NCBI RefSeq assembly: GCF_056746865.1
Contig: NZ_CM163382.1
Strand: one strand, 5' to 3'
Length of the DNA stretch: 64,000 nucleotides
Positions 6,533 through 43,282 of the stretch are shown here, piece after piece; position 1 is the stretch's first letter, and each line of letters begins with the position of its first letter. Made by a program: the position numbers and the translations under genes. Under the pieces are notes generated by a model. That model was not told where the DNA came from, made no database searches, and was given only the letters and a program-made list of their open reading frames with translations.

Positions 6533-6590
6533 TAAAAAGGGCGGCAGAGCAGTCACGGAGTAAAACTGATACCGCCAAACGTCACCAGAA
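6533..6590 (-). ncRNA. dicF: DicF small RNA (ftsZ-targeting sRNA) with intrinsic terminator
   Basis: Minus-strand sequence TTTCTGGTGACGTTTGGCGGTATCAGTTTTACTCCGTGACTGCTCTGCCGCCCTTTTT matches DicF as recalled; GC hairpin plus T-run; conserved position upstream of dicB. Confidence 0.75.
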
Positions 6591-14897: not shown

Positions 14898-15155
14898 ATA
14901 CAGCGAACGCCATTGGTTTAGTTGGATATTTACTGTGCCGGACAAAAACGGTTTGCGGGGAAATCTTAGTTAAGTAGAATGACTGCGGGTGCTTGAGGCT
15001 ATCTGTCTCAGGCATGAACACCAAAAGGCAGATAGAGAAAAGCCCCAGTTAACATTACGCGTCCTGCAAGACGCTTAACATTAATCTGAGGCCATATCTA
15101 TGCGACACATAGAGATTAGCCTCTTACGGACCGAAAGGTCAAGGAGAAGCAGGCT

Positions 15156-15311
15156 ATGAAGCAGCAAAAGGCGATGTTAATCGCCCTGATCGTCATCTGT
15201 TTAACCGTCATAGTGACGGCACTGGTAACGAGGAAAGACCTCTGCGAGGTACGAATCCGAACCGGCCAGACGGAGGTCGCTGTCTTCACAGCTTACGAAC
15301 CTGAGGAGTAA
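15156..15311 (+). CDS. hok: Hok/Gef-family type I toxin
   Basis: 51 aa MKQQKAMLIALIVICLTVIVTALVTRKDLCEVRIRTGQTEVAVFTAYEPEE, Hok-like TM helix plus CE(I/V)R motif; AAGGAG RBS; short overlapping upstream leader ORF (mok-like). Confidence 0.85.
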   Translation: MKQQKAMLIALIVICLTVIVTALVTRKDLCEVRIRTGQTEVAVFTAYEPEE

Positions 15312-15407: not shown

Positions 15408-15478
15408 CTGGCATTCTGGTTTACAATTCGCACGTCAGCCTGAACACCTGACACCTGCTGCGCCAGTAGAGAAAACAG

Positions 15479-15751
15479 ATGGCGCACAAAACCAAATTTC
15501 ACAATTCTGATACCGACCTTGCCATCCGGCATGGGCGGCGTTCACACGCATTTAAAACCGACTGGTACCAACACCCACCATGTACTGAAGAACAGGCCGA
15601 ATGGCTAATTCATAACTACCGCAGACGCGGATACGAGATTAAGAAAGCCCTCAGCCTCGATTATCGTCACTGGATAATCTATGTCAGGCTCCCTTATTCC
15701 GAACGCTCACCGCGCCCATCCCGCACATTCCAGCAACGCATCTGGAGGTAA
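15479..15751 (+). CDS. Hypothetical protein (90 aa), overlaps the DUF968 gene out of frame
   Basis: ORF overlapping 15681..16802 by 71 nt in another frame. Confidence 0.3.
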   Translation: MAHKTKFHNSDTDLAIRHGRRSHAFKTDWYQHPPCTEEQAEWLIHNYRRRGYEIKKALSLDYRHWIIYVRLPYSERSPRPSRTFQQRIWR

Positions 15752-19524: not shown

Positions 19525-19879
19525 GGGCAAATCCAGGTGGTTGTTGCTTTCCCGTTGCTGAAAAAGAAAACGCCAGACTGTTAGCCGGGTATCAGTTATC
19601 TGGAGAAATTTTTAAATACCTCACAATTCAGGCGGTTGACTGTTGTCTGGTTTGCGGGGAGTTTGTTAAAAGAAACTGGCATGGTGAATCCCCCTGTGCG
19701 GAGGGGCAATCAGCAACTGGTGTTTTGTCACCGACCCTTATCCTTTCTGTGCGGGTTCAGGTGCTGATACTGAACTCACCGGGAGGCACCCGGCATCATG
19801 CAATGGCACATAGCGCCACTCTCCAGCCCCTCTCCGGAGGGGCTGTTTATATTGATTTTGTCAGATGTGAGTAAACTCC

Positions 19880-33495: not shown

Positions 33496-34416
33496 ATGGG
33501 ATTGTTTACGACCCGCCAGTTACTCGGTTATACCGAACAAAAAGTGAAATTCCGTGCGCTGTTTCTGGAGCTGTTTTTCCGCCGTACGGTGAATTTCCAC
33601 ACCGAAGAGGTGATGCTGGACAAAATTACCGGAAAAACGCCGGTGGCGGCCTATGTCTCCCCAATCGTTGAAGGAAAAGTGCTTCGCCATCGCGGTGGTG
33701 AAACCCGCGTGTTACGTCCGGGCTACGTCAAGCCCAAACACGAATTTAGCACGCCGGAGGGGGAGCGGTATATCCCTTGTGTGAATATTTCCGCGGAGCC
33801 GGAGGCGTATTTTCGTATCGCACCGGAAGACTGGCTGCGGGCAGAGATGCAGGGGGAGATTGTGGCACTGGTCCACAGTCATCCCGGTGGGCTGCCCTGG
33901 CTGAGCGAGGCTGACCGGCGGCTGCAGATAAAAAGCGCACTGCCCTGGTGGCTGGTCTGCCGGGGTGACATTCACAAATTCCGCTGTGTGCCACATCTGA
34001 CGGGACGGCGCTTTGAGCACGGGGTGACGGACTGTTACACGCTGTTCCGGGATGCTTATCATCTGGCGGGGACTGAAATGCCGGATTTTCATCGCGAGGA
34101 TGACTGGTGGCGCAACGGCCAGAACCTGTACCTGGACAACCTGGCGGAAAACGGCTTTTGCCGGGTGTCTCCGTCCTCTGCACAGGCAGGCGATGTGCTG
34201 CTGTGCTGCTTTGGATCATCGGTGCCGAATCATGCCGCCGTTTACTGTGGTGACGGCGAGCTGCTGCACCATATTCCTGAACAACTGAGTAAACGGGAGA
34301 GGTATTCCGAAAAATGGCAACGACGAACGCATTCAGTCTGGCGTCACCGCCACTGGCACGCATCCGCCTTTACGGGGATTTACAACGATTTGGCCGCCGC
34401 CTCAGCCTGTATGTGA
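33496..34416 (+). pseudogene. In-frame chimera: N-terminal ~84 aa of major capsid protein E fused to C-terminal ~220 aa of tail protein K
   Basis: Residues 1-84 align with lambda gpE N-terminus (QLL...FRRTVNF...YVSPIV...PGYVKPKHE); remainder aligns with lambda gpK (STPEGERY.PCVNIS.EPEAYFR, HSHPGG JAMM motif); junction near 33745. Confidence 0.8.
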
Positions 34417-34994
34417 ACACGGCAGCGGAAGCCATTCGCGCCCTGTCGATGCAGATGCCGGGCTTTCGCCGTCAGATGAACGAAGGCTGGTACCAGATAC
34501 GTATTGCCGGTGATGACACGGCACCGGAGGCGGTGTACGCCCGTCTTCACGAACAGCTGGGTGAGGGAACGGTCATCCATATTGTGCCGCGACTGGCCGG
34601 GGCCGGAAAGGGTGGACTGCAGATTGTGCTGGGGGCGGCAGCCATCGTGGGCTCTTTCTTCACTGCCGGTGCCTCGATGGCGTTATGGGGTACAGCCCTG
34701 AGTGCCGGCGGTTTTTCTGCCACCACGATGCTGTTTTCACTGGGGGCCAGCATGATACTGGGCGGTGTGGCCCAGATGCTGGCCCCGAAGGCAAAAACAC
34801 CGGATTACCGCGCAACGGATAACGGCAGACAGAACACGTACTTTTCCTCGCTGGATAACATGATTGCCCAGGGGAACCCGATGCCGGTGCCTTACGGGGA
34901 AATGCTGGTTGGCTCCCGCCGTATATCCCAGGACATCAGCACCCGTGATGAAGGCGGGGGCGGAAAGGTCGTGGTTATCGGGCGGCAGGGGTAA
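34314..34994 (+). CDS. I: Tail assembly protein I
   Basis: 226 aa; RLYGDLQRFGRR...QNTYFSSLDNM...GEMLVGSRRISQ similar to lambda gpI; overlaps K end as in lambda. Confidence 0.85.
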   Translation: MATTNAFSLASPPLARIRLYGDLQRFGRRLSLYVNTAAEAIRALSMQMPGFRRQMNEGWYQIRIAGDDTAPEAVYARLHEQLGEGTVIHIVPRLAGAGKGGLQIVLGAAAIVGSFFTAGASMALWGTALSAGGFSATTMLFSLGASMILGGVAQMLAPKAKTPDYRATDNGRQNTYFSSLDNMIAQGNPMPVPYGEMLVGSRRISQDISTRDEGGGGKVVVIGRQG

Positions 34995-35170
34995 AAAGAA
35001 TAAAAAAATCCCGCAGTGATCGCGGACAGGAACTGCGGGAGAGTTACGAAGATTAAGTGTAAGGAATTATTCTTATGTCACGACAAAAAAATTAACGCAG
35101 AGAAATTATACGCGCCACAGTCAGTTTGTGAAAATGTGAAGATATTCAGAATTTTTATTCAGTCATGATA

Positions 35171-35200
35171 CAGGCATCCTCCGGGGTGCCTGTTGTTTTT
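35171..35200 (+). terminator. Candidate intrinsic terminator in the I-J intergenic insert
   Basis: CAGGCA.CC-tccg-GG.TGCCTG hairpin followed by TTGTTTTTTGGG. Confidence 0.45.
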
Positions 35201-35244
35201 TGGGCATAAACAGATTCAGACATCAGACAGGAGAGGGGGAGCGA

Positions 35245-38200
35245 GTGGGTAAAGGTGGCGGTAAGGCGCACACACCGCGCGAGGCGAAGGATAATCTCAA
35301 ATCCACGCAGATGATGAGTGTGATTGATGCGATTGGTGAGGGACCGATAGAAGGTCCGGTGAAGGGACTGCAGAGTATCCTGGTGAACAAAACCCCGCTG
35401 ACGGACACGGACGGTAATCCCGTGATACACGGTGTGACCGCGGTCTGGCGTGCCGGGGAGCAGGAGCAGACACCACCGGAAGGCTTTGAGTCCTCCGGAG
35501 CTGAAACCGGACTGGGCGTGGAAGTGACGAAGGCAAAACCGGTGACGCGCACCATTACGTCCGCGAACATTGACCGCCTGCGGGTTACCTTCGGGGTGCA
35601 GTCACTGGTGCAGACCACGTCAAAGGGTGACCGTAACCCGACATCCGTCCGCCTGCTGATTCAGTTACAGCGTAACGGTAACTGGGTGACAGAAAAGGAC
35701 GTCACCATTAACGGCAAGACCACCTCACAGTTCCTGGCCTCGGTGATTCTGGATAATCTGCCTCCCCGGCCCTTTAACATCCGGATGGTCAGGGAGACGG
35801 CGGACAGCACCACGGACCAGCTGCAGAATAAGACGCTGTGGTCGTCATACACCGAAATCATCGATGTGAAACAGTGCTACCCGAACACGGCCATTGTGGG
35901 GCTGCAGGTGGATGCGGAGCAGTTCGGCGGCCAGCAGATGACGGTGAACTACCATATCCGCGGTCGCATCATCCAGGTGCCGTCAAACTATGACCCGGAA
36001 AAACGCACGTACAGTGGTATCTGGGACGGCAGCCTGAAACCGGCATACAGCAACAACCCGGCCTGGTGTCTGTGGGACATGCTGACTCACCCGCGCTACG
36101 GCATGGGAAAACGTCTGGGGGCGGCGGATGTGGACAAGTGGGCGCTGTATGCCATCGGGCAGTACTGCGACCAGACGGTCCCGGATGGTTTCGGGGGGAC
36201 CGAGCCGCGGATGACCTTTAATGCGTACCTGGCACAACAGCGTAAGGCGTGGGACGTTCTCAGTGATTTCTGCTCTGCGATGCGCTGTATGCCGGTATGG
36301 AACGGCCAGACGCTGACGTTCGTTCAGGACCGTCCGTCGGATGTGGTGTGGCCGTACACCAACAGCGATGTGGTGGTGGATGATAACGGCGTGGGTTTCC
36401 GCTACAGCTTCAGTGCCCTGAAGGACCGGCACACGGCAGTGGAGGTGAATTACACCGACCCGCAGAACGGCTGGCAGACCTCCACGGAACTGGTGGAAGA
36501 CCCGGAAGCCATACTGCGCTACGGACGCAACCTGCTGAAGATGGACGCGTTCGGCTGTACCAGCCGCGGTCAGGCCCACCGTGCCGGGCTGTGGGTGATA
36601 AAGACCGAACTGCTGGAAACGCAGACGGTGGATTTCACGCTCGGGTCACAGGGGCTGCGTCACACACCCGGTGACATCATTGAAATCTGTGATAACGACT
36701 ATGCCGGGACCATGACCGGCGGACGTGTCCTGTCCATCGATGCCGCCAGCCGTACCCTGACGCTGGACCGGGAGGTGACACTGCCGGAGACCGGCACGGC
36801 CACTGTTAATCTGATTAACGGCAGCGGTAAGCCGGCGAGCGTGGCCATCACCGCACACCCCGCGCCTGACCGGATACAGGTCAGCACCCTGCCGGATGGT
36901 GTGGAGACATACGGTGTGTGGGGACTCTCCCTGCCGTCACTGCGTCGTCGCCTGTTCTGCTGTGTCTCCATCCGGGAAAACACGGACGGCACGTTCGCCA
37001 TCACGGCGGTGCAGCACGTACCGGAAAAAGAAGCCATTGTGGATAACGGGGCCAGCTTTGAGCCGCAGTCAGGCAGCCTGAACAGCGTTATCCCACCGGC
37101 AGTGCAGCACCTGACGGTGGAGGTGAGTGCAGCTGACGGTCAGTATCTGGCACAGGCGAAATGGGACACGCCGCGGGTGGTGAAGGGTGTGCGCTTCAGT
37201 CTGCGTCTGACCAGCGGAAGCGGAGAAGACAGCCGTCTGGTGAGCACCGCCATCACCGCAGACACGGAGCACCGTTTCAGTGGTCTGCCGCTGGGGGAAT
37301 ACACCCTGACGGTGCGGGCCATTAACAGCTACGGCCAGCAGGGCGAACCTGCGACCACCACCTTCCGGATTAACGCGCCTGCAAAACCCGCCACCATTGA
37401 GCTGACGCCGGGGTATTTTCAGATAACGGCGGTCCCGCGTCTTGCGGTGTATGACCCGACGGTACAGTTTGAATTCTGGTTCTCAGAAAAACGCATCACG
37501 AACACGGCACAGGTGGAAAAATCTGCCCGTTATCTGGGGACCGGCAGTCAGTGGACTGTCCAGGGGAGCCGGATTAAGCCGGGGACGGATTTCTGGTTTT
37601 ACGTGCGAAGCGTCAACCTGGTGGGAAAATCTGCTTTTGTGGAAGCCAGCGGGCAGCCCAGCAATGATGGTGAAGGGTATCTGGAAATTTTCCGGGGGCT
37701 GATAGATGAGACGCTTCTGGGCCAGGCACTGAAAGAGCGCATTGATGCTTCAGCGCTGCGTACGGAGGTCACGCAACTGGAAGAAGACATCCGTCAGCGG
37801 ATGGACACGGATATCGCAGAAGTGACCCGGAAAATCGGGGAGGCGGAAAACAGCCTCACGCAGCTGGTTGCGAAAAAGAATGAGGACCAGACACTGGCCA
37901 TCGCGCAGGTGAGCCAGAAAGTGGACCGGGTGAGCAGTGAAATCTCACAGACTGTCAGCCAGGGGCAGTCAGAAAATGCCCGACAGATAGCACAGGTCCG
38001 CCAGTACGTGGATAAAAAAGGGAGTGAAATTACCTCGACCACGGATAAAAAACTGGGTGACCAGGCCGTGACCATACAGCAAATCCAGCGGGTTCAGTCA
38101 GACACGCGCAATGAGCTGAATGCCATGTATATGCTGAAGGTGCAGAAAACAAAAAACGGTATTCCCTATGTGGCCGGGATTGGTGCGGGGATTGAGGATG

Positions 38201-38937
38201 TTGATGGTCAGACGCTGAGCAGTATTCTGCTGCAGGCTGACCGTATCGCGATGATTACCCCGGAGAACGGCAACACCACGCCGCTGTTTGTGGCGCAGGG
38301 GAATCAGCTGTTCATGAACGACGTGTTCCTGAAGCGACTGTTTGCGGTGAGCATCACGTCATCCGGCAATCCTCCGACGTTTTCCCTGACGCCGGATGGC
38401 AGGCTGACAGCCCGCAATGCGGATATCAGTGGAGCCATCACGGCGAATACCGGCACGCTCAATAATGTCACCATTAACGAGAACTGTGTCATCAGAGGGA
38501 AACTGTCTGCAAACCAGATTGAAGGCGATCTCGTTAAAACAGTGGGTAAGGCTTTCCCTCGTGACTCCCGTGCACCGAAGCGGTGGCCATCAGGAACCAT
38601 TACCGTCAGGGTTTATGACGATCAGCCGTTTAACCGGCAGATTGTTATTCCGGCGGTGGCTTTCAGCGGTGCCAGACATGAGCGGGAGAACAGCGATACT
38701 TATTCGTCATGCCGCCTGATAGTGAAGAAAAACGGTGCTGAAATTTATAACCGTACCGCGCTGGATAATACGCTGATTTACAGTGGTGTTATTGATATGC
38801 CAGCTGGTCGCGGCCACATGACGCTGGAGTTTTCTGTATCAGCATGGTGGGTAAATGGCTGGTATCCCACAGCAAGTATCAGCGATTTGCTGGTTGTTGT
38901 GATGAAGAAAGCCACTGCAGGCATCACGATTAGCTGA
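35245..38937 (+). CDS. J: Host-specificity / central tail fibre protein J
   Basis: About 1230 aa, GTG start ([21 protein letters not shown] as lambda J); collinear with lambda J with an extra coiled-coil-like segment. Confidence 0.92.
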
Positions 38938-42698: not shown

Positions 42699-43282
42699 TG
42701 GCATTCAGAATGAGTGAACAACCACGGACCATAAAAATTTATAATCTGTTGTCCGGAACTAATGAATTTATTGGTGAAGGTGATGCATATATTCCGCCTC
42801 ATACAGGTCTGCCAGCAAACAGTACCGATATTGCACCGCCAGATATTCCGGCTGGCTTCGTGGCTGTTTTCAATAGTGATGAGTCATCGTGGCATCTCGT
42901 TGAAGACCATCGGGGTAAAACGGTTTATGACGTAGCGTCAGGGGACGAGTTATTTATTTCTGAACTCGGTCCGTTACCGGAAAATGTTACCTGGTTATCG
43001 CCGGAAGGGGAGTTTCAGAAGTGGAACGGCACAGCCTGGGTGAAGGATACGGAAGCAGAAAAACTGTTCCGGATCCGGGAGGCGGAAGAAACAAAAAACA
43101 ACCTGATGCAGGTAGCCAGTGAGCATATTGCGCCGCTTCAGGATGCTGCAGATCTGGAAATTGCAACGGAGGAAGAAACCTCATTGCTGGAAGCCTGGAA
43201 AAAGTATCGGGTGTTGCTGAACCGTGTTGATACATCAACTGCACCTGATATTGAGTGGCCTACGAACCCTGTCAGGGAGTAA
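42698..43282 (+). CDS. tfa: Tail fibre assembly protein Tfa
   Basis: 194 aa, [18 protein letters not shown]... as lambda Tfa. Confidence 0.9.

What the first reader, a model, noticed from the sequence alone, without database searches (positions are those of the whole stretch)
34995..35244. 250-bp insert with a terminator-like hairpin between tail genes I and J
In lambda, I and J are nearly contiguous. Here about 250 bp of AT-rich sequence separates them. It contains a hairpin plus T-run on the sense strand (35171..35200) and an A-run/hairpin at 35005..35038, with no convincing ORF. It may be a small RNA, a regulatory element within the late operon, or a scar from recombination near the E-K deletion.
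Basis: seen in the sequence. Interest (0 to 1): 0.35.

Follow-up and report, generated by a model that had tools for sequence, protein, structure and literature searches.

The report
Prophage small RNA gene (PasB family)
The 250-bp gap between tail genes I and J holds an unannotated small regulatory RNA gene on the opposite strand, a divergent allele of the known prophage sRNA family PasB/EcOnc22, next to an ordinary sense-strand hairpin that lambda-like phages also have in front of J.

Summary
I ends at 34994, J starts at GTG 35245, and the 250-bp spacer is 42% G+C against about 58-61% in the flanks. Both hairpins are real.

The interpretation needs re-orienting. The "A-run/hairpin" next to I is the intrinsic terminator of a minus-strand gene with its own near-consensus sigma-70 promoter. 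The predicted RNA runs 35098->35002 (97 nt). This is the pasB slot. PasB of EPEC E2348/69 lies at the same place and orientation, with the same promoter, 5' GCGUUA, AAUCUUC box, terminator and 3' end. EcOnc22/23/24 of EHEC Sakai occupy the same slot. Both were shown experimentally to be Hfq-dependent RNAs of about 85 nt.

The window allele is only about 74% identical to either, and it differs in the seed.

The sense-strand hairpin + U-run (35170-35201) is not part of the insert. Lambda, D2, ev017 and HK75 have an equivalent hairpin just upstream of J.

The spacer is not a deletion scar, because the identical 251 bp sits in an intact prophage. No ORF is conserved.

Verdict: a real but largely known element, and a new, uncharacterised allele of a known sRNA family. 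Low to moderate interest.

The parts
34314..34994 (+). tail assembly gene I (context; left boundary of the spacer)
   Evidence: 226-aa ORF. RefSeq annotates the identical sequence as 'tail assembly protein'.
35002..35098 (-). predicted pasB-family sRNA gene, 97 nt, from predicted +1 G35098 to the last U of the U7 tail at 35002
   Evidence: The covariance model built from 17 alleles hits only here in the window (92.3 bits, E = 1.3e-15). The alignment with E2348/69 PasB shows the 3' end coinciding with the published PasB 3' end. The 5' end is inferred from the promoter, not measured.
35002..35039 (-). intrinsic terminator of the sRNA: stem CCCGCAG (35039-35033) / CUGCGGG (35016-35010), then A, then U7 (35008-35002)
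   Evidence: -15.7 kcal/mol, z = -4.0. The stem is invariant in 17 alleles and is the only consensus structure. The first 20 of 23 nt of the published PasB Northern probe AATCCCGCAGTGATCGCGGAGCT match 35005-35024 on the + strand.
35043..35065 (-). predicted seed region UCCUUACACUUAAUCUUCGUAAC (RNA nt 34-56)
   Evidence: It is homologous to PasB nt 37-59. That stretch is perfectly complementary over 9-11 nt to RIL-seq partners napF, fabR/yijD, caiF and tolC. UCCUU and AAUCUU are conserved, while the centre is hypervariable: 14 versions in 119 loci.
35066..35074 (-). A-R-N triplet run AAG AAU AAU next to the seed (candidate contact for the Hfq distal face)
   Evidence: runs of 3-5 A-R-N triplets in 113 of 119 loci, always just 5' of UCCUU. 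The window run has p about 0.04 against shuffles; PasB has 5 triplets, reached by 0 of 300 shuffles.
35085..35091 (-). internal U7 run near the 5' end of the RNA (conserved in nearly all alleles)
   Evidence: Alignments.
35105..35132 (-). sigma-70 promoter: -35 TTCACA (35132-35127), 16-nt spacer, -10 TATAAT (35110-35105)
   Evidence: 11 of 12 matches. Conserved in types A, B and D.
35133..35165 (-). conserved AT-rich block upstream of the promoter (possible UP element or regulator site)
   Evidence: ATAAAAATTCTGAATATC is conserved in both short-type and long-type spacers. Function inferred only.
35170..35201 (+). sense-strand hairpin (10 bp, loop UCCG) plus UGUUUUUU, 44 nt upstream of J; ancestral I-J junction element, not part of the sRNA gene
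   Evidence: -19.6 kcal/mol on the + strand, -13.2 on the - strand. One pair runs C-G / U.G (window, 35177/35186) / U-A across relatives. Analogous hairpins occur in lambda, D2, ev017 and HK75, where the HK75 record annotates it as 'terminator'.
35245..38937 (+). tail tip / host specificity gene J (context; right boundary), GTG start, SD-like GGAG at 35238-35241

Best explanation
The spacer is a small 'moron' inserted between I and the hairpin that normally precedes J. It is a self-contained gene for an Hfq-dependent, trans-acting small RNA of the PasB/EcOnc22 family, transcribed against the direction of the late operon.

Shown here:
- a near-consensus sigma-70 promoter (35132-35105, minus strand);
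- a 97-nt transcription unit ending in a 7-bp GC stem plus U7 (35039-35002);
- the same slot, orientation and conserved blocks as PasB and EcOnc22-24.

Taken from the literature for sister alleles: the RNA is made in lysogens, is about 83-85 nt, is destabilised without Hfq, and forms Hfq-bound chimeras with about 37 cellular and virulence transcripts.

Inferred:
- The U7 tail and terminator bind the proximal face of Hfq.
- The AAG-AAU-AAU run may bind the distal face.
- The single-stranded stretch UCCUUACACUUAAUCUUCGUAAC (35065-35043) pairs with ribosome-binding or start-codon regions of target mRNAs and blocks translation. This is suggested for PasB by my finding of 9-11-nt perfect matches at the napF start codon, the yijD Shine-Dalgarno, caiF codons 2-4 and the tolC 5'UTR.
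- The centre of the seed differs between alleles, so this allele should control a different target set from PasB or EcOnc22.

The sense-strand hairpin + U-run (35170-35201) is a separate, ancestral feature of I-J junctions. It is most likely an intrinsic terminator for RNA polymerase that has not been modified by Q, and it is read through during lytic growth.
For: - Promoter and terminator. Hairpin stability.
- PasB location, from PMC8550237 table S6: NC_011601 minus strand 1466343->1466261, between E2348C_1436 and E2348C_1437. RefSeq places these coordinates between the tail assembly protein (ends 1466255) and gpJ (starts 1466496).
- Alignment: the -35, -10, GCGUUA, U-run, UCCUU, AAUCUUC, stem and U7 all align, and the 3' ends coincide. 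20 of 23 Northern-probe bases match.
- The covariance model of the family hits the window once, at 35002-35098 on the minus strand, E = 1.3e-15. It also hits E2348/69, PhiR12_1, 1720a-02, E. albertii and CFSAN061770, but not lambda.
- EcOnc22/23/24: Hfq-CRAC peaks, Northern about 85 nt, 'destabilised' in the hfq deletion strain. They lie in the I-J spacers of Sakai Sp15, Sp14 and Sp11 on the strand opposite the tail genes, where the model hits at E = 4.7e-14. An offset calibrated on AgvB1 puts the peaks on nt ~17-78 of the RNA.
- PasB dependence on Hfq: log2FC -6.8 in the hfq deletion strain. Northern blot and interaction count.
- Seed complementarity to RIL-seq partners.
- A-R-N runs.
- 35 alleles share the fixed frame around a variable seed.
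Against: - No expression, 5'-end or Hfq data exist for this allele. It is only 74% identical to PasB and 73% to the Sakai allele.
- The predicted +1 gives 97-98 nt, whereas PasB was reported as 83 nt and EcOnc22 as about 85 nt. Either the 5' end is processed or one of the estimates is off.
- The consensus fold shows no covariation, because the terminator stem never varies. Structure support is therefore conservation only, and the 3' arm was part of my search pattern.
- The original authors found no shared target motif for PasB. My seed assignment rests on 4-5 of only 8 partners tested.
- No target of the window allele could be searched, because the host genome is not available. There is none in the 64-kb window.
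- The role of the sense-strand hairpin is inferred from position and conservation only.
Confidence: 0.82

Rival explanations
1. Cis-antisense control or phage-phage interference. The RNA's main partner would be the late polycistronic mRNA itself, to which it is perfectly complementary across the I-J junction. Duplex formation would trigger RNase III cleavage and change J expression, either of the resident prophage on induction or of an incoming phage with the same tail-module allele. Allelic diversification would then be an escape race. This reading is not exclusive of trans action.
For: The gene lies wholly inside the late transcription unit, in antisense orientation. The slot and orientation are fixed in all 119 loci, while the body of the RNA diversifies. 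One genome can carry up to 11 spacer copies.
Against: The RNA overlaps no coding sequence or ribosome-binding site: its 3' end is 8 nt after the I stop, and its 5' end is 147 nt before the J start. PasB is Hfq-dependent and has many trans partners in RIL-seq, none of them the I-J region in the rows I read. The blocks conserved across alleles (UCCUU, AAUCUU, A-R-N, U-tail) are those expected of an Hfq trans-acting sRNA. No experiment addresses this reading.
Confidence: 0.1
2. The functional element is the sense-strand terminator or attenuator that sets the I:J expression ratio. The rest of the spacer would be inert AT-rich filler.
For: The hairpin + U-run is stable and significant. It keeps pairing through C-G/U.G/U-A changes. 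Counterparts exist in lambda, D2, ev017 and HK75.
Against: Phages with only that hairpin need a spacer of just 52-60 nt. The extra ~190 bp carries a conserved promoter, transcript body and second terminator on the other strand. Sister alleles give a detectable Hfq-bound RNA.
Confidence: 0.05
3. A small protein gene on the sense strand (window ORF 35016-35168, 50 aa; 'MKINVKELF...' in relatives), as annotated in phages PhiR12_1 and 1720a-02.
For: 'Hypothetical protein' calls exist in two phage records. The first ~9 codons (x-K-I-N/K-x-K/R-E-L/F-F) stay in frame across many alleles, with third-position changes.
Against: - The ATG is replaced by ACG in 51 of 119 loci, including the window.
- Peptide length varies from 12 to 31 aa, and the frame breaks after about 10 codons.
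- There is no Shine-Dalgarno.
- The window's own GTG start lies inside the terminator stem-loop.
- The period-3 variation is what an (A-R-N)n Hfq motif on the opposite strand predicts.
Confidence: 0.02
4. A recombination scar left by the deletion that fused E to K upstream.
For: Only proximity: the E-K junction lies about 1.2 kb upstream.
Against: An identical 251-bp spacer sits in a prophage with a complete E...K-I-J-lom-stf operon. The spacer family is in 1,815 genomes and in plaque-forming phages. K-I-spacer-J is 100% identical to intact relatives right up to the junction at about 33748.
Confidence: 0.01

Closest known systems
PasB (E2348CN_0006), a prophage PP6 sRNA of EPEC E2348/69. Sources: Pearl Mizrahi et al. 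2021, PMC8550237; Zhu, Shabalina & Storz 2026 preprint, 10.64898/2026.05.13.724894
   Same: - Same slot between tail genes I and J, and same orientation against the late operon.
- Same promoter: TTCACA-16-TATAAT.
- Same 5' GCGUUA, internal U-run, A-R-N run, UCCUU, AAUCUUC, 7-bp stem CCCGCAG/CUGCGGG and U7, with the same 3' end.
- As the preprint reports for PasB flanks, an IS009 Rfam hit lies within 10 kb (window 43041-43239).
   Different: - 77 of 104 aligned columns are identical, with several indels.
- The centre of the seed differs (UCCUUACACUUAAUC against UCCUUCACAUUGAUC), as does the terminator loop (16 nt against 11 nt).
- The longest shared word is 25 nt. The preprint's blastn (word size 28, coverage >75%) would not retrieve it. 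Accordingly, my PasB megablast found only hits of 90% identity or more, in 956 genomes.
- None of PasB's top RIL-seq partners tested keeps significant complementarity to the window allele.
EcOnc22 / EcOnc23 / EcOnc24 of EHEC O157:H7 Sakai, prophages Sp15 (Stx1), Sp14 and Sp11. Sources: Tree et al. 2014, PMC4104026 table S2; listed as 'target unknown' in PMC7873438
   Same: Same I-J slot, same antisense orientation and same family by covariance model (80.5 bits). Experimentally an Hfq-bound RNA of about 85 nt that is destabilised without Hfq.
   Different: 73% identity to the window allele, with a different seed (UCCAUAACGUUAAUC) and a weaker promoter (-10 AATAAT, poor -35). In the papers I could read, these RNAs are not linked to PasB.
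AgvB / AsxR 'anti-sRNAs' and PasA/PasC (sRNAs at the PR' moron site of lambdoid prophages)
   Same: They are also prophage-borne, Hfq-dependent, short sRNAs oriented against the late operon. They have a conserved 3' module, a variable 5' region and A-R-N motifs.
   Different: Their slot is different: downstream of Q/PR', not in the tail operon. There is no sequence similarity, and Rfam models RF02702 and RF02703 do not hit the spacer. AgvB and AsxR act as sponges of core sRNAs; nothing indicates that here.
Phage 'morons' (Juhala et al. 2000, cited in PMC4104026): autonomous promoter-gene-terminator units inserted between conserved late genes, such as lom and bor
   Same: An extra, lower-G+C unit with its own promoter and terminator sits between two genes that are 60 nt apart in lambda.
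   Different: The cargo is an RNA, not a protein, and it points against the operon.
The I-J junction hairpin of lambda and HK97-type phages (annotated 'terminator' in the HK75 record HM173637)
   Same: A GC-rich stem plus U-run on the sense strand, a few tens of nt upstream of J. The window element at 35170-35201 is its positional equivalent.
   Different: The sequence is unrelated. In the window the hairpin is separated from I by the pasB insert.

Membership tests
PasB / EcOnc22 sRNA family | Gene lies in the spacer between tail assembly gene I and host-specificity gene J of a lambdoid prophage | tested here: met
   Window 34995-35244 lies between I and J. PasB sits between the same genes, and so do EcOnc22-24.
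PasB / EcOnc22 sRNA family | Transcribed on the strand opposite to the tail genes, ending a few nt from the I stop codon | tested here: met
   Promoter and terminator are on the minus strand. The 3' end at 35002 lies 8 nt from the I stop. It aligns to the last U of the published PasB 3' end.
PasB / EcOnc22 sRNA family | Sequence homology over the whole RNA, including the conserved blocks (GCGUUA, U-run, UCCUU, AAUCUUC, stem CCCGCAG/CUGCGGG, U7) | tested here: met
   74% identity to PasB and 73% to the Sakai allele, with all blocks present. Family covariance model: 92.3 bits, E = 1.3e-15.
PasB / EcOnc22 sRNA family | Same seed, and hence the same targets, as PasB | tested here: not met
   The seed centre differs. 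PasB has 9-11-nt matches to napF, fabR/yijD, caiF and tolC (p = 0.002-0.03). The window allele has none (p > 0.13). It is a family member but not the same regulator.
PasB / EcOnc22 sRNA family | An RNA of about 83-85 nt accumulates in lysogens | not testable with these tools
   Published for PasB and EcOnc22. There are no data for this allele.
Hfq-dependent trans-acting sRNA | Rho-independent terminator followed by at least 6 U (Otaka 2011 and Ishikawa 2012, cited in PMC4104026) | tested here: met
   7-bp GC-rich stem plus U7.
Hfq-dependent trans-acting sRNA | Single-stranded conserved seed 5' of the terminator | tested here: inconclusive
   The consensus fold leaves the whole body unpaired. 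However, the MFE of the window allele pairs part of it weakly, at frequency 0.05. The seed is inferred by homology to PasB nt 37-59.
Hfq-dependent trans-acting sRNA | Physical binding to Hfq and Hfq-dependent stability | not testable with these tools
   Shown for sister alleles only.
Hfq-dependent trans-acting sRNA | A-R-N repeat (distal-face motif; class II sRNAs, AgvB-like) | tested here: met
   AAG AAU AAU at 35074-35066. 3-5 triplets occur in 113 of 119 loci. Its functional meaning is inferred.
Phage moron | Own promoter and own terminator, inserted between genes that are adjacent in related phages, with deviant base composition | tested here: met
   Promoter and terminator. Spacers of 52-60 nt without the gene in lambda, D2, ev017 and HK75. 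G+C is 0.42 against about 0.6.
Any Rfam 15 family | Score at or above the gathering threshold | tested here: not met
   No gathering-level hit in the spacer. The best sub-threshold hits are spurious: MicX 18.3 bits against a threshold of 75, and PK-repZ 17.8 against 44. No gathering-level or plausible hit from any Rfam 15 family, so the family seems not to be in Rfam.
Small protein gene | Conserved start codon, reading frame and length across homologues | tested here: not met
   ACG replaces ATG in 51 of 119 loci. Lengths vary from 12 to 31 aa, with frame breaks.

The most novel reading that the evidence does not exclude
The I-J slot carries a 'seed cassette'. The frame is fixed: promoter, 5' GCGUUA, A-R-N run, AAUCUU, terminator. 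Only the centre of the seed is swapped: 14 versions in 119 loci, and up to 11 spacer copies per genome.

The RNA is also perfectly antisense to the late mRNA. It might therefore serve as an allele-specific weapon between related prophages, silencing or cleaving the tail-operon transcript of an incoming phage that carries the same allele. Seed and body diversification would then be an escape race, on top of its known trans effects on host and virulence mRNAs.
Probability: 0.08. Interest if true: 0.65.

Novelty: new member of a known kind. Interest (0 to 1): 0.27.

Why it matters
Annotation. This RNA gene is not annotated in any of the RefSeq or GenBank records I inspected ('none', or only 'gpJ', under the matches). 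It has no Rfam model. Yet the spacer family is in about one third of complete E. coli genomes (1,815 of 5,426). The window allele itself is at 95% identity or more in about 725 records.

Scope of the family. The family is larger than the published census. Searching with the E2348/69 sequence at word size 28 finds 956 genomes and cannot see this allele. The EHEC RNAs EcOnc22-24 and the EPEC RNA PasB turn out to be alleles of one gene. That pools two independent lines of experimental evidence.

Biology. Alleles differ exactly where PasB appears to pair with targets. Strains that look alike in prophage gene content may therefore differ in post-transcriptional wiring, including virulence genes such as map, espC, bfpB and cesD2, which are PasB partners in EPEC.

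None of this is surprising in kind. Prophage sRNA morons with variable seeds are known.

Tried and rejected
- **Rfam.** No family matches the spacer at gathering or relaxed thresholds. A MicX 'hit' at 18 bits only reflects two terminators.
- **AgvB/AsxR.** I first suspected these. They sit at the PR' moron site, not at I-J.
- **PasA/C/D.** Also excluded by synteny: they lie near Q, holin and RusA.
- **Consensus structure and covariation.** Only the invariant terminator stem is predicted, with zero compensatory pairs. No structural argument is possible beyond conservation. My locus set was seeded with the 3' arm of that stem, which biases it.
- **RNAduplex on whole RNAs.** It gave long, loop-ridden duplexes that were not informative. 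I replaced it with a longest-perfect-match test against shuffles.
- **Targets inside the window.** None found.
- **A second copy in the window.** None. A weak plus-strand model hit at 35112-35200 (E = 0.29) is only the sense hairpin + U-run.
- **A plus-strand sRNA ending at 35201.** No plus-strand promoter passes the scan. By eye there is only a weak extended -10 (TGTGAAAAT, about 35127-35135). Not pursued.
- **Host range.** Only Escherichia albertii plus probable contaminant contigs are real; 9 of 14 pattern matches were chance.
- **Other EcOnc candidates.** EcOnc36 (Sp5) and EcOnc54 (Sp6) are not at I-J junctions.
- **Literature search by sequence strings.** Nothing found.
- **Window genome.** It could not be identified. 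No complete E. coli genome spans its E-K junction.

Full report
**1. What is in the sequence**

Gene I ends at 34994 (TAA 34992-34994). J starts at GTG 35245. The mechanical ORF list extends J to TTG 35200, but the N-terminus [15 protein letters not shown] matches lambda J. The spacer is 34995-35244, 250 bp, with 42% G+C against 58-63% in the flanks.
- The sense-strand hairpin is at 35170-35193, followed by UGUUUUUU: -19.6 kcal/mol, z = -3.5.
- The I-proximal hairpin is at 35010-35039 with A7 at 35002-35008. On the minus strand it reads as stem + U7: -15.7 kcal/mol, z = -4.0.

The consensus scan also finds a minus-strand sigma-70 promoter, TTCACA-16 nt-TATAAT (35132-35127 / 35110-35105, 11 of 12 matches). 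Promoter and terminator delimit a 97-nt minus-strand unit, 35098->35002.

**2. Identity**

The spacer is common. It is in 1,815 of 5,426 complete E. coli genomes, with a median of 2 places per genome and up to 11. It is also in 149 phage records, mostly Stx-converting phages.

A literature search led to the Pas sRNAs of EPEC. Table S6 of Pearl Mizrahi et al. 2021 gives PasB as NC_011601 minus strand 1466343->1466261, 83 nt, prophage PP6, with Northern probe AATCCCGCAGTGATCGCGGAGCT. RefSeq places those coordinates between the tail assembly protein (ends 1466255) and gpJ (starts 1466496). The first 20 probe bases equal window 35005-35024.

Alignment of the two spacers shows the same -35, -10, 5' GCGUUA, U-run, UCCUU, AAUCUUC, stem CCCGCAG/CUGCGGG and U7. 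The published 3' end falls on the last U. [quoted passage not shown] That fixes the register of the 83-nt RNA.

A covariance model built from 17 alleles hits the window once, at 35002-35098 on the minus strand, with 92.3 bits.

**3. A second, independent experimental record**

Table S2 of Tree et al. 2014 lists EcOnc22 (Sp15/Stx1 phage, + strand, Northern ~85 nt, destabilised in the hfq deletion strain). Its repeats are EcOnc23 (Sp14) and EcOnc24 (Sp11).

In Sakai these coordinates fall in the I-J spacers, on the strand opposite the tail genes. The family model hits there at E = 4.7e-14.

The published peaks lie a constant 122-124 nt from the model hits. Calibrating the coordinate versions on AgvB1 gives a shift of +139. 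That places the peaks on nt ~17-78 of the RNA.

I found no paper linking EcOnc22-24 to PasB.

**4. The window allele is a distinct family member**

It is 74% identical to PasB and 73% to the Sakai allele.

An IMG/VR scan with the terminator 3' arm gave 120 loci. From these I extracted 119 gene copies with 35 distinct RNAs and 14 versions of the putative seed. The window version (UUCCUUACACUUAAUCUUCGUA) is the commonest, at 42 of 119.

The longest word shared with PasB is 25 nt. The preprint's blastn (word size 28, coverage >75%) cannot retrieve it:
- My PasB megablast finds 956 genomes, all at 90% identity or more.
- The window RNA finds 1,394 genomes by blastn, about 725 records at 95% or more, and O157:H7 strains at 94.7%.

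Outside E. coli the only credible host is E. albertii.

**5. How it probably works**

Published for PasB:
- It is validated by Northern blot.
- It is strongly Hfq-dependent (log2FC -6.8).
- It has about 37 RIL-seq interactions, and it is more abundant under non-activating conditions.

I read its partner list for the non-activating condition and tested eight strong partners. PasB nt 37-59 (98-nt numbering; UCCUUCACAUUGAUCUUCAUUUG) has perfect matches as follows:

| Partner | Site | Match | p against shuffles |
|---|---|---|---|
| napF | across the GUG start codon | 11 nt | 0.006 |
| fabR-yijD junction | over the yijD Shine-Dalgarno | 11 nt | 0.002 |
| caiF | codons 2-4 | 9 nt | 0.03 |
| tolC | 5'UTR | 10 nt | 0.008 |
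| map | - | 11 of 12 to the motif | - |

This points to the classical mechanism, occlusion of translation initiation regions. The original authors reported no motif for PasB.

The window allele shows no significant match to these sites (p > 0.13). Its specificity is therefore predicted to differ.

Just 5' of the seed, all alleles carry 2-5 A-R-N triplets (window: AAG AAU AAU). This is the Hfq distal-face motif described in Tree et al. Only the terminator stem is predicted as consensus structure, without covariation.

**6. The sense-strand hairpin**

It is not part of the insert. Lambda's 60-nt I-J spacer has its own hairpin + U-run, and the family model finds no pasB there. D2 and ev017 have the same. 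HK75 has an unrelated hairpin that its record annotates as 'terminator'.

In relatives of the window, one pair runs C-G / U.G / U-A. The window's U.G (35177/35186) pairs only on the plus strand.

I infer a terminator for polymerase that has not been Q-modified. This is untested.

**7. Rejected readings**

- **Scar of the E-K deletion.** The identical 251 bp lies in an intact operon. The window is 100% identical to intact relatives from about 33748 onward. No complete genome shares its E-K junction.
- **Small protein.** The ATG is ACG in 51 of 119 loci, including the window. Lengths vary from 12 to 31 aa with frame breaks. The period-3 pattern is explained by the A-R-N motif.
- **Cis-antisense action on the late mRNA.** This remains possible but is unsupported.

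**8. Verdict**

The kind of element is already known. The allele is uncharacterised, is unannotated in the records I inspected, and is missed by the published census. Interest is low to moderate.

Noticed in passing
window 33496-34416 (junction near 33748): An ORF fuses the N-terminus of major capsid protein E to tail protein K, so the genes from the rest of E through to K are missing. No place in 5,426 complete E. coli genomes spans this junction. Downstream K-I-spacer-J is 100% identical to intact prophages.
   Followed up: partly
window 6539-6590 (-), 14987-15158 (+), 19650-19854 (+), 43041-43239 (+): Rfam gathering-level hits to DicF, sok, STnc100 and IS009. So this prophage region carries at least four further RNA elements. 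The 2026 preprint reports IS009 within 10 kb as typical of PasB flanks.
   Followed up: no
L009:2237-2582 (and about 55 other IMG/VR loci): A longer I-J spacer (~342 nt) keeps the pasB gene and promoter. It replaces the J-proximal module with another sequence that has its own hairpin, AAACCCCGGTATCAGCAGATACCGGGGTTTTCTTT. No Rfam match.
   Followed up: partly
L069 (IMG/VR), I-J spacer of 848 nt: A pasB copy whose usual promoter is replaced by unrelated sequence. It may hold extra cargo or an insertion.
   Followed up: no
L148:2137-2227, L149:2168-2258, L150:2118-2208 (Sakai NC_002695.2 2902836-2902926, 2676767-2676857, 2166817-2166907): The EHEC sRNAs EcOnc22/23/24 (Tree et al. 2014) are alleles of the same gene as EPEC PasB. 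The papers I could read do not make this link.
   Followed up: yes
L147:760-800 (lambda 15459-15499); L157:432-455 (HK75): Lambda-type and HK97-type phages all have a sense-strand GC hairpin + U-run between I and J, inside a Q-antiterminated operon. HK75 annotates it as a terminator. Its role is not known to me.
   Followed up: partly
L135, L131, L136 (genome contigs): E. coli prophage I-J spacers (74-99% identical) sit on contigs assigned to a Collinsella MAG, a Clostridiales MAG and a Parendozoicomonas isolate. This is probably contamination or mis-binning.
   Followed up: no
E2348/69 NC_011601 1466343 against the predicted +1 at 1466358; window 35098 against ~35084: Published PasB (83 nt) starts 15 nt downstream of the +1 predicted from the conserved promoter. 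EcOnc22 is ~85 nt by Northern against 91 nt predicted. Either the 5' end is processed or the published ends are approximate.
   Followed up: no
L048 (IMG/VR), just upstream of J: The motif TGTCTGATG near the J ribosome-binding site is present three times in tandem in one locus, where the window has one copy.
   Followed up: no
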